A model generated the notes under the pieces. It worked only from the letters and a program-made list of their open reading frames with translations, did not search any database and was not told the origin of the DNA. A stretch of DNA of 64,000 nucleotides from Eledone cirrhosa (lineage: Eukaryota). The stretch's first letter is position 1; each line of letters opens with the position of its first letter. Made by a program: the position numbers and the translations under genes. The stretch covers positions 115,072,001 to 115,136,000 of the forward strand of contig OZ024742.1 in assembly GCA_964016885.1 (NCBI GenBank). Reading direction: 5' to 3'. Shown piece after piece: positions 4,787 through 49,141 of the stretch.

Positions 4787-5189
4787 TACAGTATAATATA
4801 ATAAAGATAAAAATAAAAATAAAATATAATATATAATTCTCTGTCAGTGTGCATAAACAATATAAAAACATTATAATAGATGTATACTCCATATTCTTCT
4901 GAGGTTTTGGCTTGTATTGGCTCTAATAGATGTATACTCCATATTCTTCTGAGTTTTTGGCTTGTATTGGCCGATAGTACTTCTTGTAGCTTTACTTGCC
5001 CTGATGAGTCCTTAATAGGACGAAACATTATTGGCTAATAAAGACTTTCGATGTATTGAAGGCTTCTTTGGTTTATTTTTTTATAATTCTTCGGCTCTGT
5101 TTAAATACATTGAGCTATATCTTATACTGTCATTTCTATAATATGAAGAGGGTGTTTAACTCCAACACACTCTAGTATTTTAATTCTTA

Positions 5190-14778: not shown

Positions 14779-14795
14779 TATGTTGTATGTATATA

Positions 14796-15129
14796 TATAG
14801 TGTAGGTAGTACAGTGAAATACTGGTAATGGTACCAAATGAAGCACTCTATGCACTGTGTATATAATAGAAAAACGAGGAAATTTCGCAATATATATTTT
14901 GTCGCATCGCCAGTCTTAGGAGAAGATCGATACTGGAGTCGGGTCCATAACTCCTATGGGTCAACTTGAGCCAATCCTCTTCGAACCCCCCGTGACAGGT
15001 CGATACGCAATAACATGTTCATATGTAAACGAAACTTCCTCGTTTTTTTCTATTATATACCCTCTGCCTCTGCATAGGGTGCTTGATTTGGTATTAACAC
15101 CAATATTTCACCGTACTACTTACACTATA
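14796..15129. repeat. Small foldback element (~90-bp inverted arms with a structured centre) between (TA)n tracts
   Basis: tatagtgtaggtagtacagtgaaata..aaaaacgaggaaatttcg pairs with cgaaacttcctcgttttt..tatttcaccgtactacttacactata. Confidence 0.85.
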
Positions 15130-28105: not shown

Positions 28106-28226
28106 AGATGAGTAATATTGTAGAACAATAAAACTATGCATATATTGGATAAGTAGCACTCAACAATGGGTACAACTGGAGTATATATTAAAGAAGAAAT
28201 TAAAAGATGGTTTAAAAAGTGCCAGA

Positions 28227-28296
28227 TATTTTATTATGCGCATTTCGAAAGCAACATCATCCTGAGACAAATTTTGTGTTCTCATCAGATAAAATA
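28227..28296 (-). ncRNA. Type I hammerhead ribozyme, palindromic stem III ATGCGCAT
   Basis: Minus strand reads TATTTTAT-CTGATGA-GAA..TTC-GAAA-TGCGCA-TA-ATAAAATA, with an 8-bp stem I. Confidence 0.88.
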
Positions 28297-28707
28297 AGGT
28301 AACATGATATGAGGCCTAAAAACACTTGTCAACAGGAAAGTGCAAAGTCTACCTATGACAGAAATATAAGAGTAAGAAAAAGATAGGAACATAGAAGAAA
28401 AGGAAAGAAGAAGGAGAAAAAGGAAAAAGAAAAGGAGAGGGGGATATGGAAGAGAGGAAAAAGAAGGAGAATGAGAAAGAGAAAGAGAAAGAGAGAGAAA
28501 CATTTGATCAGGAACGCTGTCAAAATGAAACAAGCTGTAAATAACGGTTAAAACGTAAATTGATGAGGTGTATGTGCGAATATTATAGATGGTATTCAGA
28601 TATTAGAGCTCTAAAATATGGAAACTGGGTATATTATTTTATATTGGGTTTAAATACTAAAAAATGGATTAAGAAGTGTAAACATGTATTAATAGAATGA
28701 AATAAAA

Positions 28708-30290: not shown

Positions 30291-31090
30291 TAATGTCTTA
30301 TAACATATTCCACGAATAACGGTTAATTTTTTACACACATTTCATTATATTCTACAATGTATTAAGTTAGTTTTCTCAGCATATATTAAGCCTTTGACCT
30401 TTTTTTCTATATACATATATGTTCGTAGACTTTGTAAACAAATTATGACGTCATGTGTATTTCTACGTTTATAAATCATTCTAGCAATTTCCTTTATTTA
30501 TTTGTTGATATAAAGTAATAATTAAATAGTATACCCCACATATATTGATTTTTAATAGAAATTTTTAATTTTGCAATAGTTAGAATATTTTAATTTTTTA
30601 TTTATTTATTTATTTTTTTTATTTTATAAAACTATTTAATACTTATTTTAATTTAATTTAATTTAATTTAACTTAATTTTATTTTATTAATACATTTTTC
30701 ACTTCTTAATGCAATTTTTAGTATTTAAACCCAATATAAAATAATATACTCAGTTCTATATTTTTGATCTCTAATATTTGAATACCATCTATAGTATTCG
30801 CACATATACCTCATCGATTTACTTTTTAACCGCTATTTACAGCTTGTTTCATTTTGACAGCGTTTCTGATCAAAAGTCTCTCTTTCTCTCTCTCTCCCTC
30901 TTTCTCTTTCTCTCTCTTCCTTTTTTTCCTCTCTTCCTTTTTTCCTCTCTTCTCTTTCATTTTCCTTTTTCTCCTTCTTCATTCCTTTTCTTCTATTTTC
31001 CTATCTTTTTCTTACTCTTATATTTCTGTCATATGTAGACTTTGCACTTTCCTGTTGACAAGTATGTTTAGGCCTCATATCATGCTACCT

Positions 31091-31160
31091 TATTTTATCT
31101 GATGAGAACATAATGTTTGTCCCAGGATGATGTTGTTTTCGAAATGCGCATAAGAAAATA
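31091..31160 (+). ncRNA. Type I hammerhead ribozyme (28227 family)
   Basis: TATTTTAT-CTGATGA-GAA..TTC-GAAA-TGCGCA-TA-AGAAAATA. Confidence 0.87.
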
Positions 31161-32020
31161 TATGGAACTTTTTAACCTTCTTTAATATATATATATATAT
31201 ATATATATACTATATATAATGTAGTTTGATTACCAATGGGTAGAACTGGTGGTAATGGTTGGTTAACCATGATGTAAAAAATTAAATATATATATATGTT
31301 TGTGTGCCTGTGCATGTACAGATATGTGTGTGTATGTGTGACCTTGTGTGTGTGTGAATAGAACAATGAAGACATAAAGGTCTGAGATGCAGTTATCGAA
31401 TATTCTAGCCTCTTTTTAGGTGTTCGGTCGCTCGATAATTTTATGTGTGTATGTTTGCATTGGCGTGTGCGTGTGCGCGTGTGCCCACCCTTAAGTATGC
31501 GTGCAGAGCTGCTTATATGTGTAGATATATGATGTGTTTTTTATGTGTGTGTTTATAGGTATATATATCTGAATGTATGCGGTTGTGTATGTGTATATAT
31601 TTCTGAATGTATGCGTTTATGTTCATGTATGTATGTCAATGTACAGTTTCCAGTCTCATATATGCGTGTGTAAGTGTTTAGTTATGTTCAAGTGACAGTG
31701 TTGTACACATTAGGCGAAATTATTCAATCTGTGTTCCATGGCAGACAAATTGCAATTAAATATTTTGTGTATGCTACAGCTTGATTTCTCAAATGATGAA
31801 TATTTTAAACTCTAGCTGGTTTTACACAAATTACTTTTCTAATAGCTTGAGGATTTTCTAAAAGACATTCGCAAACTGATTCTCCAGGTTAATAAAAATA
31901 GTATATATATATATATACCTGCATATATATATATAGTAAGTAAAATAACGGAGTAAAGGACTCACGTATAATTCTGTAATTCAATGAGTTCAAAAGAAAG
32001 AGTTTTCCTGGGCACGTTAA

Positions 32021-32126
32021 AATACAGAGAGGAAAACACAGGAGAGTGTGTTTTCATTACCGGATTGTAACCACCATTTTAATATCCTGTAATGAAACGT
32101 TACTCTCCTGTGTTGTTCATCTCTAT

Positions 32127-32129
<3 letters not shown>
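32021..32129. repeat. Foldback hairpin, ~45-bp arms
   Basis: gaaaacacaggagagtgtgttttcattaccggat pairs with atcctgtaatgaaacgttactctcctgtgttgttc. Confidence 0.85.
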
Positions 32130-32220
<91 letters not shown>

Positions 32221-34254
32221 GGGGTGTGTATGTGCGTGTGTGTGTGTGTGTGTGTGTGCGTGTGTGTGCGTGTGTGTGTGTATGTGCGTGTGTACGTGTG
32301 TGTGTTAGAAAACATGTGGATCCAAATCTGAATAATATGATTGCTATCAAGGCCACTAACTTCAATAATTAAAATATGTTGTTTTAGTACAGTATTCTTA
32401 ATAAAATAGAAAATTCCTTTCTAAACACCATATACAAGTTGCGATTCACTAATTGATTAATCTAAATCTACAGCTTATCTCATAATTCACTTCCTTCATC
32501 CATATATATCAAGCAGACATCACCTTACCTCAATGCTCTGCTTCTAGCTACACTTGTTCATATTCTAAGCCTTTGTATTGGTGTCCAGTCCTTTATTTCC
32601 AATAATTATAACTACATATCATGCTATGTCAAATTTACAAATTTATATTTGAATATAATTATCTGGAGATCAGAAATGGGAACTGAATATCAAATAATGT
32701 GTAATACATTATAAATATTGCCTCCATGATTGGTAAATTTGTTCCCAAGATATTTACTAAATATATGATATTGCATGTGTGTGTTTACATATATGAACTA
32801 CAGTTTCCTCGGAAGACACTTTTCATTGCTCATGAACACATTATAATTTATAAACAAAATATAGTATGACTTATTTCGCACAAAGTAAGTGGTAATGGAG
32901 GAAAGTGGATGCGAATATAGAGGAAAACGTGCTTTTATGAAGCTTACCCTCATCGCTACCCTTTATGACACGTGAATATCTATATAAACATACGTGTTGC
33001 TTAATTTTATGAAATGATAAAGGCAGTCGCTGCATGAAAATGTGAGAAAGTTAACAGTTGAGCTAATGAATATATTATTATTTCGAATGTGGATATTATT
33101 GACTTGTAGTATAGATATTACGATACATATATTCATTGATTCAGCATAATCCATCCTGTATTATGATGCCCGAGCAAAGCACATTTTCAATAGTTTCGAA
33201 CACCCAGTTAAATAGATATTCCCGAAAAAATTATAAAAATCCTATTGTCAAGGAAATATTAGTGTATAATGTCAAATGTATTCCGTACATGCAAGTATTT
33301 CATCAATTTCATCGCGTAAGGCTTCATGCAAACATTACAATATAATGTCATATTTATGTTTATAGATAACCTAAGTAACTTGTCAGCCTCCTTTTAGCAA
33401 TTAATTATCATTTATATGTTCCCAGATATAAATCATCATGTAATTATTTATAGTCAACTGTCATTCCATACCTTACATGTTATTTATTTCCAGGCTCTCC
33501 TCCCCAGATTCATCACACACAGAGGAAATGCTTGAACGACACTGAATTATGATGTCAATTGGTAAAGGAGGCATGAATCGGAAAAGCTTTTTTTTTCTGA
33601 TTTTGAAGGAAGTCAATTCATGTCTAAATGCGAATTGTGTGAGATGTTTTGAGTGCTTGTGCGCCTGTGAAATCAGAATGTTTATAATGCAATAAGAAAC
33701 GATAAAATGTTAGAGCCATAAAAGAGTGACATGTAGAATCATATGAACAGCAGTAAATATTGTTTCCAAGTTATGGCTCCTGTCCACACGTGACTTCATA
33801 AACAGATCTCTTTCTGGCATTAACTCTGCGTCTGATGCACTACTGTTTCTTTCCTTTTGCACCGCCGTGTATATTTTGCCAGGCCAAGTATGTTTTACCT
33901 CAATATATTTTACGTGTCTGAAACATTATAATACATACAAACACATACATTTATACATTTATATATATCTTTATATATATATATATATACGTACATACAT
34001 ATATGTATACACACGTACAGTCGTATGTATATATAAACATACATGTACACATATATATGTACGAACATTATAATAAATGTTGTGTAAATCCATAAGTACA
34101 TATATATATGTGTGCATGTATGTATATATATATATACATACTACTGTACGTCTGTATACATATATGTATGTACGTATACATACTTATATTCAAGTAACAG
34201 CCGTACTAAGATTGAGAAATGAAATTTCGTTTCATTTTTTCCGTTTATATATAT

Positions 34255-34404
34255 ATAGGAAACAGTATTACCCTGACGGCAGAGTTCAAGCCATTTCGAC
34301 GGTTATTTCTGGATTTTAGTATAAAATCTTTTATTATTTCTGGACTCTAGAAATTGCCGCCGAAACGGCTTGAGCTCTGCCGTCGGGGTCATACTTTTTC
34401 CTAT
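34255..34404. repeat. Foldback hairpin, ~58-bp arms, each containing a hammerhead 3' half
   Basis: Right arm reads GAAA-CGGC ttgagctct GCCG-TC-GGGG; the left arm is its reverse complement with a few mismatches. Confidence 0.88.
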
Positions 34405-34696
34405 TTCCCACTCTACTACCCTAAGTATTGAGACTCTGCTGTGTTCTGGTCCATTTGGTTCCTTACCACAATTCCTTTGTTATATATATATATAAATATA
34501 TATATATATAAATATATATATATATAAATATATATATATATACATATATATATTTGCTCTAGGCTTCTTATATATTTGATATATATTTATCCTTCTCGAG
34601 CCCTTATTGGATTTTACTATAAAATGTATTATTATTACTATATATATATATACGTATAATTATTATTATTACTATATATATATATATATATACGTA

Positions 34697-48957: not shown

Positions 48958-49029
48958 GAGGGGTATAACACTGGAAGGTAATATCCGTAGTGGTAGAGCA
49001 CTCAGTCCATTGCACTAGTTAGGTAGAAG

Positions 49030-49141
49030 TGGTAACAAAACAGTTAGCTCACGATATCGAGAACAATGGTTACACCTTACGGATGTTCAGCTACGGTGAA
49101 ACAATTGTTCTCGATATGGTGAACAAACTGTTGTGTTACCA
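49030..49141. repeat. Foldback hairpin, ~48-bp arms, containing a hammerhead-like 3' half
   Basis: tggtaacaaaacagtt..tcacgatatcgagaacaatggttacacc pairs with ggtGAAACAATTGTTctcgatatggtga..aactgttgtgttacca. Confidence 0.87.

What the first reader, a model, noticed from the sequence alone, without database searches (positions are those of the whole stretch)
34255..34404. Half-hammerhead mirror element: a ribozyme 3' half duplicated about its own stem II
Seen: the right arm has an exact hammerhead 3' half (stem II 3' strand, GAAA, stem III CGGC/GCCG, GUC cleavage triplet, then a stem I 3' strand). Where stem I 5' and CUGANGA should be, there is instead the reverse complement of that same 3' half, so the axis of symmetry falls in loop II. 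Similar geometry recurs in unrelated sequences at 49030, 32021 and possibly 14796. Inference: PLE cDNA copied from the pLTR 3' end folds back on the stem II hairpin and self-primes, giving a MITE-like palindrome. The ribozyme helix would then also act as a second-strand primer and a source of new palindromic elements. Inverted pLTRs are known in PLEs; I am not aware of this breakpoint rule being described.
Basis: partly seen in the sequence, partly recalled or inferred. Interest (0 to 1): 0.8.

Follow-up and report, generated by a model that had tools for sequence, protein, structure and literature searches.

The report
Penelope stubs joined inside a ribozyme
This mirror-image stretch is one of thousands of stub insertions of a Penelope-like jumping gene whose two arms stop at the same few letters inside its hammerhead ribozyme motif, likely because two short DNA copies ran off the start of the element's RNA and were joined, which would give a testable view of how these poorly understood elements insert.

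Summary
The half-hammerhead palindrome is real but larger (34255-34482) and asymmetric. It is a stub of a Hydra-clade Penelope-like element; one tail 33-mer has 10,342 exact matches. The parent carries a whole type I hammerhead with a U3-A8 core (UUGANAA). The proposed mechanism fails. The stem II snap-back junction has 0 matches genome-wide. In 23 of 29 direct junctions the tail-less arm reaches further in than the tail arm, which self-priming cannot give. In a second family (49030) the stop lies in stem I, and 32021's axis is outside its ribozyme. Long copies read through the site (0 of 27 stop), while short copies stop there twice and jump. The stop therefore behaves like an RNA 5' end, likely an initiator-type transcription start. 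Best model: two cDNAs, primed at the two target ends from the two known internal start sites (56 of 57 pair one of each), run off this end and are end-joined. No RNA data were available. The scan found similar palindromic stubs in other genomes before.

The parts
34244..34254 (.). (TA)n target, left flank
   Evidence: sequence; TA repeats follow the tail in 84 of 90 sampled copies
34255..34313 (-). short inverted arm: parent positions about +62 ('A-end') to +3; no tail
   Evidence: alignment to natural copy L039, 84.7% over 59 nt
34314..34345 (.). junction insert: small inverted repeat (34312-34328) and a second copy of the antisense cDNA end (34334-34345); not parent loop II
   Evidence: sequence; inserts of 3 nt or more in 16 of 63 junctions
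34346..34404 (+). long arm, body: parent +3 to +61 with hammerhead 3' half (stem II 3' 34351-61, GAAA 34362-65, stem III 34366-82, predicted cut after 34384, stem I 3' 34385-88)
34405..34482 (+). 78-nt 'tail', present on one arm only; in full elements it runs on into the ORF
34483..34540 (.). (TA)n target, right flank
48959..49141 (-). comparison: family B stub (different pLTR, minimal CUGAGGA hammerhead); tail arm on the minus strand, tail-less arm on the plus strand
31930..32132 (-). comparison: family C stub; its hammerhead is not in this copy, and the family's arm ends are dispersed

Best explanation
This is a dead-end insertion of a Hydra-clade Penelope-like retrotransposon whose two arms stop at a fixed site inside the hammerhead motif, likely because two separate cDNAs ran off the 5' end of the element's RNA (likely its transcription start) and were then joined. 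Shown: the family, the intact parent (3543-bp tandem unit, RT plus C-terminal GIY-YIG), the whole U3-A8 hammerhead in the parent, the nucleotide-sharp pile-up of both arm ends at +1 to +8, the pairing of one tail arm with one tail-less arm, microhomology and inserts at the joint, and read-through of the same site by long copies. Inferred: the endonuclease cuts both strands of (TA)n; each 3' end primes on sense RNA, one at about +140 (tail end) and one at +61; both cDNAs reach the RNA end at +1; they are joined end to end, by RT jumping or by microhomology-mediated repair. A transcript starting at +1 would carry only the 3' half of the ribozyme at its 5' end, which is why the stubs look like half-hammerheads. 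Long partial-tandem copies would come from another template (circular or multimeric RNA) in which +1 is internal.
For: Stop site: 84 of 118 at-risk arm ends fall in a 10-nt bin around +1, against 1-9% per bin further 3' (90 tail-selected loci). It is sharp to the base: among the first 100 of 2024 junctions, the letters between TATTT and AGTCC are C 35, CTG 20, CTGG 20 (+2 mutated), CT 9, none 3, others 11; the junction a longer cDNA would make through ATTT homology is only 3 of 100. Not a structural block: of copies running on 1.4 kb or more, 0 of 31 that reach the site stop there (27 independent loci), and 6 of 6 arrays end elsewhere. Short ORF-leading copies that reach the site stop at -3 to +4 in 5 of 5 cases, and several carry two +1-started pieces in tandem, as a jump from a template end would give. 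Two cDNAs: 56 of 57 two-arm copies pair one tail arm with one tail-less arm; in 23 of 29 direct junctions the tail-less arm reaches +1 and the tail arm is shorter. The same junction types recur in at least five subfamilies and both orientations. Family B has its own stop (25 of 44 ends in a 10-nt bin; 7 of 25 inverted arms end exactly at +1) in stem I. Both stops match an initiator-like YYANWYY at the A (motif recalled; about 1-1.5% of positions match). A Penelope-like protein cuts and extends both strands, starts at two internal sites bounding the tail, and is modelled as a dimer (PMC11167929); Penelope has an internal Inr promoter in the pLTR (PMC2377424).
Against: No RNA 5' ends were seen: the one RNA run laid one contig, away from the site. 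The cap signature is only suggestive: G precedes +1 in 2121 matches against 1723 for A or C; G is unexplained by the other arm in 14 of 40 and A/C in 4 of 20, but the commonest junction has C. One of three family B variants misses the initiator match by one base. No downstream promoter element was recognised. Family C shows only a weak peak at its candidate site (8 of 19, or 6 of 17 without two parsing artefacts). No full-length copy starts at +1, so the RNA that makes stubs is not shown to make full copies. Long copies are mostly a younger subfamily than the stub sample. Bins were placed after seeing the data, and the two ends of one copy are not independent.
Confidence: 0.65

Rival explanations
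1. Same two-cDNA joining, but the fixed RNA 5' end is made after transcription (exonuclease trimming up to a bound protein, or a processing cut), not by a promoter.
For: The stop lies a similar distance from the ribozyme cut (41 and 38 nt) and from the tail end (about 140 and 135 nt) in families A and B, as a protein footprint would give. The cap-G excess is weak.
Against: The stop is at an initiator-like A in both families; the hammerhead cut site itself (+41) is not a pile-up (3 of 148 ends in that bin); no shared upstream exon or leader precedes +1 in 60 junctions, against splicing at the adjacent TTTAG.
Confidence: 0.2
2. One reading: one cDNA folds back on the stem II hairpin and primes its own second strand.
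For: Arm ends lie next to stem II; 6 of 29 direct junctions have the polarity that fold-back allows; 1 of 90 copies (L063) keeps the inner loop as a fold-back on the inner hairpin would; self-priming has been proposed for such palindromes (PMC3846280).
Against: 0 matches for the predicted junction; wrong polarity in 23 of 29 and 30 of 63; stop in stem I in family B; 0 of 27 long insertions stop there.
Confidence: 0.05
3. A palindromic master copy is itself mobile (MITE- or SINE-like), and the junction is inherited rather than made at each insertion.
For: Stubs outnumber ORF-leading copies by far (10,342 against 205 pattern matches); a few junction types dominate; both arms usually share subfamily letters (30 of 54 identical, the rest mostly single changes).
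Against: Junctions differ copy by copy with private inserts; the same junction types occur across subfamilies and with either arm reaching +1; ends are the parent's own two ends, not TIRs; long ORF copies carry the same pair of ends.
Confidence: 0.07
4. Longer inverted insertions later lost their centres by deletion of unstable palindromes.
For: Some copies have large one-sided central losses (L061, L077, L085).
Against: Deletion would not stop at one base of the parent, and single-arm and direct-jump copies also start at +1 to +4.
Confidence: 0.03

Closest known systems
Hydra clade of C-terminal EN+ Penelope-like elements (Craig et al. 2021, PMC8557442)
   Same: Single ORF with RT and C-terminal GIY-YIG, DKT motif, CxCX5C linker, CxxC and CxH around the conserved E and N, no CCHH, (TA)n targets, hammerhead in the pLTR, partial tandems, inverted 5'-truncated copy, one-sided tail.
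   Different: RWR in place of RWK; unit 3.5 kb rather than under 3 kb; tail 78 nt rather than 30-40; U3-A8 core; over ten thousand stub copies; a fixed inner end of the arms is not described in the sections read.
PAc (Poseidon, Anolis) in vitro mechanism (Frangieh et al. 2024, PMC11167929)
   Same: Both target strands cut and extended; two internal start sites bounding the tail, downstream of the hammerhead; uncleaved RNA used as template.
   Different: That paper maps where cDNA starts, not where it ends or how two cDNAs join, and finds no strand difference in start site; here 56 of 57 insertions use one of each start and both arms end at one site.
Palindromes at inverted pLTR junctions in Adineta vaga (Arkhipova et al. 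2013, PMC3846280)
   Same: Head-to-head arms, tail on one arm, Inr-like motif in the pLTR.
   Different: Explained there by self-priming on an antisense template; junction polarity here contradicts self-priming for most copies.
Minimal and U3-A8 hammerheads of PLEs (Cervera and de la Pena 2014, PMC4209133)
   Same: U3-A8 covariation, opposite-strand hammerhead pairs, proposal of circular RNA templates for tandem copies.
   Different: Here stem III is a stable 4-5 bp helix and loop II is long; the stop site splits the ribozyme.
L1 twin priming and retroviral minus-strand strong-stop DNA (recalled)
   Same: Two target-primed cDNAs joined by microhomology; a short cDNA running to the RNA 5' end.
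   Different: Twin priming gives non-overlapping inversions, whereas these arms overlap fully; no strand transfer giving full copies that start at +1 was found (0 of 27).

Membership tests
Hydra-clade EN+ PLE | single ORF, RT followed by C-terminal GIY-YIG endonuclease | tested here: met
   786-codon open frame with RT motifs and VIY..YIG; Atlas neighbours at 0.96-0.99 carry GIY-YIG, RVT_1 or HTH_animal; Pfam scan itself gave 0 families
Hydra-clade EN+ PLE | DKT, CxCX5C linker, CxxC and CxH, no CCHH | tested here: met
   read from the translation against PMC8557442 section 11
Hydra-clade EN+ PLE | RWK motif | tested here: inconclusive
   RWR at the expected place
Hydra-clade EN+ PLE | placement in the clade by RT phylogeny | not tested
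   no reference set fetched
Hydra-clade EN+ PLE | (TA)n insertion, partial tandems, inverted copy, one-sided tail | tested here: met
   84 of 90 with TA after the tail; arrays and inverted arms
Type I hammerhead ribozyme (parent) | conserved core with 3-8 pair, GAAA, NUH, three helices | tested here: met
   UUGANAA in 22 of 24 distinct copies with all four bases at N7, C3-A8 in 2; three-way fold z -3.3; no Rfam hammerhead model among the 150 of 189 matches listed for the window
Type I hammerhead ribozyme (parent) | self-cleavage | not testable with these tools
   needs in vitro assay
MITE | symmetric TIRs, fixed internal sequence, TSD of a DNA transposon | tested here: not met
   asymmetric ends, junction differs by copy, parent is a retroelement; TSD not discernible in (TA)n
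Stem II snap-back product | sense loop II kept; tail arm reaches at least as far in as the other arm | tested here: not met
   0 matches; wrong polarity 23 of 29
Pol II initiator start site | YYANWYY at the RNA end | tested here: met
   family A full match; family B 2 of 3 variants; motif recalled
Pol II initiator start site | capped RNA 5' ends; cap-derived extra G | tested here: inconclusive
   no RNA coverage; G excess modest and confounded by microhomology

The most novel reading that the evidence does not exclude
The Penelope-like promoter fires inside the element's own hammerhead, so the primary RNA begins with half a ribozyme and with both reverse-transcription start sites only 61 and 140 nt from its cap. 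An asymmetric protein dimer primes both ends of a (TA)n break from these two sites; the two 'strong-stop' cDNAs are joined head to head, making over ten thousand palindromic stubs whose joints map the start site to the base. Full-length partial-tandem copies come only from a second, circular or multimeric RNA. This would explain inverted pLTRs, the one-sided tail and partial tandems in one scheme, and give the ribozyme a role in making the productive template.
Probability: 0.35. Interest if true: 0.82.

Novelty: new variant of a known kind. Interest (0 to 1): 0.6.

Why it matters
How Penelope-like elements make inverted and tandem ends is open: PMC8557442 names it as the next task, and PMC2377424 says there is no obvious way to regenerate the pLTR. 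Thousands of junctions in one genome give rules any model must meet: a base-sharp inner end, one arm from each start site, and read-through in long copies. These rules exclude the published self-priming idea for most copies here, point to two RNA templates, and name one base to test by CAGE. Stub joints might also map start sites in genomes without RNA data. The element itself is an ordinary dead copy.

Tried and rejected
Rfam scan of the window: only below-threshold microRNA and snoRNA look-alikes among the 150 of 189 rows listed. Pfam: 0 families for the ORF. RNA test: 7 runs found, 1 on record as RNA, contigs only, no cover at the site; laying the focal copy on four further runs showed the family but no contig across its private insert, which proves nothing. 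First arm mapping with one reference mis-parsed divergent subfamilies and was redone with seven natural references. Family C coordinates were wrong and redone. Rows dropped: L066, L104, L120 from the arm-length comparison (mis-parsed), L244 from family B, L286 and L313 in the corrected family C count; L245 and L246 are duplicates of one insertion. A retrovirus-like scheme (strong-stop cDNA jumps to a ribozyme-cut 3' end and yields full copies starting at +1) was tested and not supported: 0 of 27. Ribozyme cut site as the end of arms: no pile-up at +41. Splicing at the TTTAG next to +1: no shared upstream sequence. A wide-gap census of junctions could not be run; a 0-4 nt version was, so long inserts are counted only in samples. 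14796 was not searched in the genome.

Full report
Observation. The + strand at 34351-34388 reads as a hammerhead 3' half, and 34255-34313 is its inverted copy. A search of the own genome (3.0 Gb, 1796 contigs) gave 2779 candidates. Flanks showed that the element runs on through a 78-nt tail to about 34482 and then (TA)n, while the inverted arm begins at a fixed point without the tail. I number the parent from the A of AGTCC in loop II (+1): stem II 3' strand +8 to +18, predicted cut after +41, short end +61, tail end about +140. In the focal copy both arms end at +3. The 32 nt between them are a private insert: a small hairpin and a second copy of the cDNA end.

Parent. A pattern joining tail to downstream sequence found 205 places, among them tandem arrays of a 3543-bp unit with a 786-codon frame (99% identical in a second array). 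It has DKT, a CxCX5C linker, CxxC and CxH, no CCHH, and RWR for RWK, which fits the Hydra clade (PMC8557442 section 11); no tree was built. Pfam gave nothing; the Atlas gave GIY-YIG, RVT_1 and HTH_animal neighbours. Non-inverted copies hold the 5' half directly upstream: CCCC, UUGANAA, G, stem II. The core is U3-A8 in 22 of 24 distinct copies with all four letters at N7, a variant reported for Schistosoma PLEs (PMC4209133). One natural copy folds as a three-way junction, z -3.3. Cleavage is untested.

Where arms end. To avoid selecting on the junction I took the first 90 of 10,342 exact matches of a tail 33-mer, all on contig C1. Arms were extended against seven natural references. Of arm ends still at risk, 84 of 118 fall in the 10-nt bin around +1 (44 of 66 tail arms, 40 of 52 partner arms), against 1-9% per bin further 3'. 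The bin was placed after seeing the data and paired ends are not independent, so the very small p-values are overstated. Of 2024 junctions of the form TATTT-N(0-4)-AGTCC, the first 100 had C 35, CTG 20, CTGG 20 plus 2 mutated, CT 9, nothing 3, other 11 (counted by eye). A cDNA passing +1 by a few bases would offer ATTT homology and give the 'nothing' class, which is rare.

Snap-back fails. Fold-back on stem II would leave loop II in sense orientation behind the inverted arm; that string has 0 matches. Fold-back also requires the tail arm to reach at least as far in as its partner. The tail arm is shorter by 3 nt or more in 30 of 63, longer in 16, within 2 nt in 17 (three mis-parsed rows dropped). 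In 60 loci picked for an arm reaching +1 (40 of 2121 G-preceded, 20 of 1723 A/C-preceded), 23 of 29 direct two-arm junctions had the tail-less arm at +1 and the tail arm ending at +4 to +7. Two cDNAs are needed. In the same set 56 of 57 two-arm copies pair one tail arm with one tail-less arm; in the tail-selected set 62 of 63 partners lack the tail. Joints show overlap in 33, blunt 4, 1-2 nt inserts 10, longer inserts 16 of 63. One copy of 90 fits fold-back on the inner hairpin.

The stop behaves like an RNA end. In 49 ORF-leading loci, the 33 that run on 1.4 kb or more never stop at the site: 31 read through (27 independent insertions), 2 end before it. Of the 16 short ones, the 5 that reach it stop at -3 to +4 (the script's window counted 4 and left the -3 copy outside). 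Several are built of two direct pieces, each starting at +1 to +4, as if the enzyme ran off a template, jumped, and ran off again. All 6 arrays examined end elsewhere. Most long copies are a younger subfamily, but its short copies also stop at +1 to +4. A retrovirus-like transfer giving full copies that start at +1 is not supported. Long copies fit a circular or multimeric template, as PMC4209133 proposes.

Other families. The 49030 family (2374 tail matches, 50 sampled) has a minimal CUGAGGA hammerhead and its own stop: 25 of 44 ends in one bin, 7 of 25 inverted arms at exactly one A in the stem I 5' strand. The 32021 family (77 matches, 50 sampled) has dispersed ends and a weak peak at stem I (6 of 17 without two artefacts); the 32021 axis is far from its ribozyme. 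So the stop is not tied to loop II or to a fixed arm length. In families A and B the stop A sits in an initiator-like YYANWYY (motif recalled; 2 of 3 B variants; about 1-1.5% of positions match). An untemplated G marks capped templates in L1 (PMC6425141, two passages). Here G precedes +1 more often than A and C together, and is unexplained by the other arm in 14 of 40 against 4 of 20, but C is the commonest single junction, so this is only suggestive. No RNA reads cover the site.

Mechanism. Most likely (0.65): both strands of (TA)n are cut; each end primes on sense RNA, at +140 and +61; both cDNAs run off a fixed 5' end at +1, likely the transcription start; they are joined by jumping or microhomology repair. 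Two-strand extension, two internal starts and a dimer model are reported for PAc (PMC11167929); a start site in the pLTR for Penelope and Chlamys-3 (PMC2377424; PMC8557442 section 10). Rivals: processed RNA end 0.2, mobile palindromic master 0.07, stem II snap-back 0.05, later deletion 0.03.

What is known. Inverted truncated copies and one-sided tails are standard (PMC8557442); self-priming was proposed for junction palindromes (PMC3846280). I found no account of a fixed inner end, of strict pairing of the two start sites, or of the read-through contrast in searches; subscription papers are not in that library and no supplements were read, so PLE alignments there could bear on novelty. Read: PMC11167929 parts 1-2 of 4; PMC4209133 parts 1-2 of 4; PMC8557442 passages and sections 10-11; PMC2377424 passages and Discussion; PMC3846280 passages and Discussion; bioRxiv 10.64898/2026.07.22.740005 part 1 of 5; PMC6425141 passages; the rest as listings only. 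Earlier scan notes describe similar stubs in other genomes, none with a start-site reading.

Verdict. A real feature, an ordinary dead copy of a known kind of element, but its family shows junction rules that overturn the proposed mechanism and make an open question testable. Interest 0.6.

Noticed in passing
window 28288, 31099, 49591, 55656, 48379 (core starts); inverted pairs such as 28212-28498 / 30889-31175: Another repeated hammerhead-like family (CUGAUGA...GAAA with palindromic stem III) in long inverted pairs; likely further PLE ends.
   Followed up: partly
window 5528, 39334, 55925: A further hammerhead-like repeat (CUGANGA GGUCA...GAAA UAUAUA), also seen in flanks of other loci.
   Followed up: no
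window 4990-5045: Single compact canonical-looking hammerhead core with a perfect GTCC/GGAC stem II; stem III and cut site unclear.
   Followed up: no
G000:C2:356030076-356031898: Seven matches of the tail-to-ORF pattern at 299-bp spacing: a retrozyme-like short tandem of this family.
   Followed up: no
L174 (G000:C1:91486400-91492000): At least 51 exact tandem copies of a 55-bp ORF piece at the 5' end of a four-unit array, suggesting repeated slippage or jumping.
   Followed up: no
family C loci L263, L269, L274, L279: Family C's tail runs into its own hammerhead region within about 400 bp, a short non-coding tandem unit like an animal retrozyme.
   Followed up: partly
L192, L199, L206, L284, L308: Stubs of families A, B and C often sit side by side in the same (TA)n, each insertion leaving targets for the next.
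   Followed up: no
junction class TTTC|AGTCC (35 of first 100): The commonest joint recreates a TCAGT initiator-like word in front of the sense arm; stubs might themselves be transcribed and re-mobilised.
   Followed up: no
window 14790-14866: Degenerate hairpin between TA runs with no match to families A-C.
   Followed up: partly
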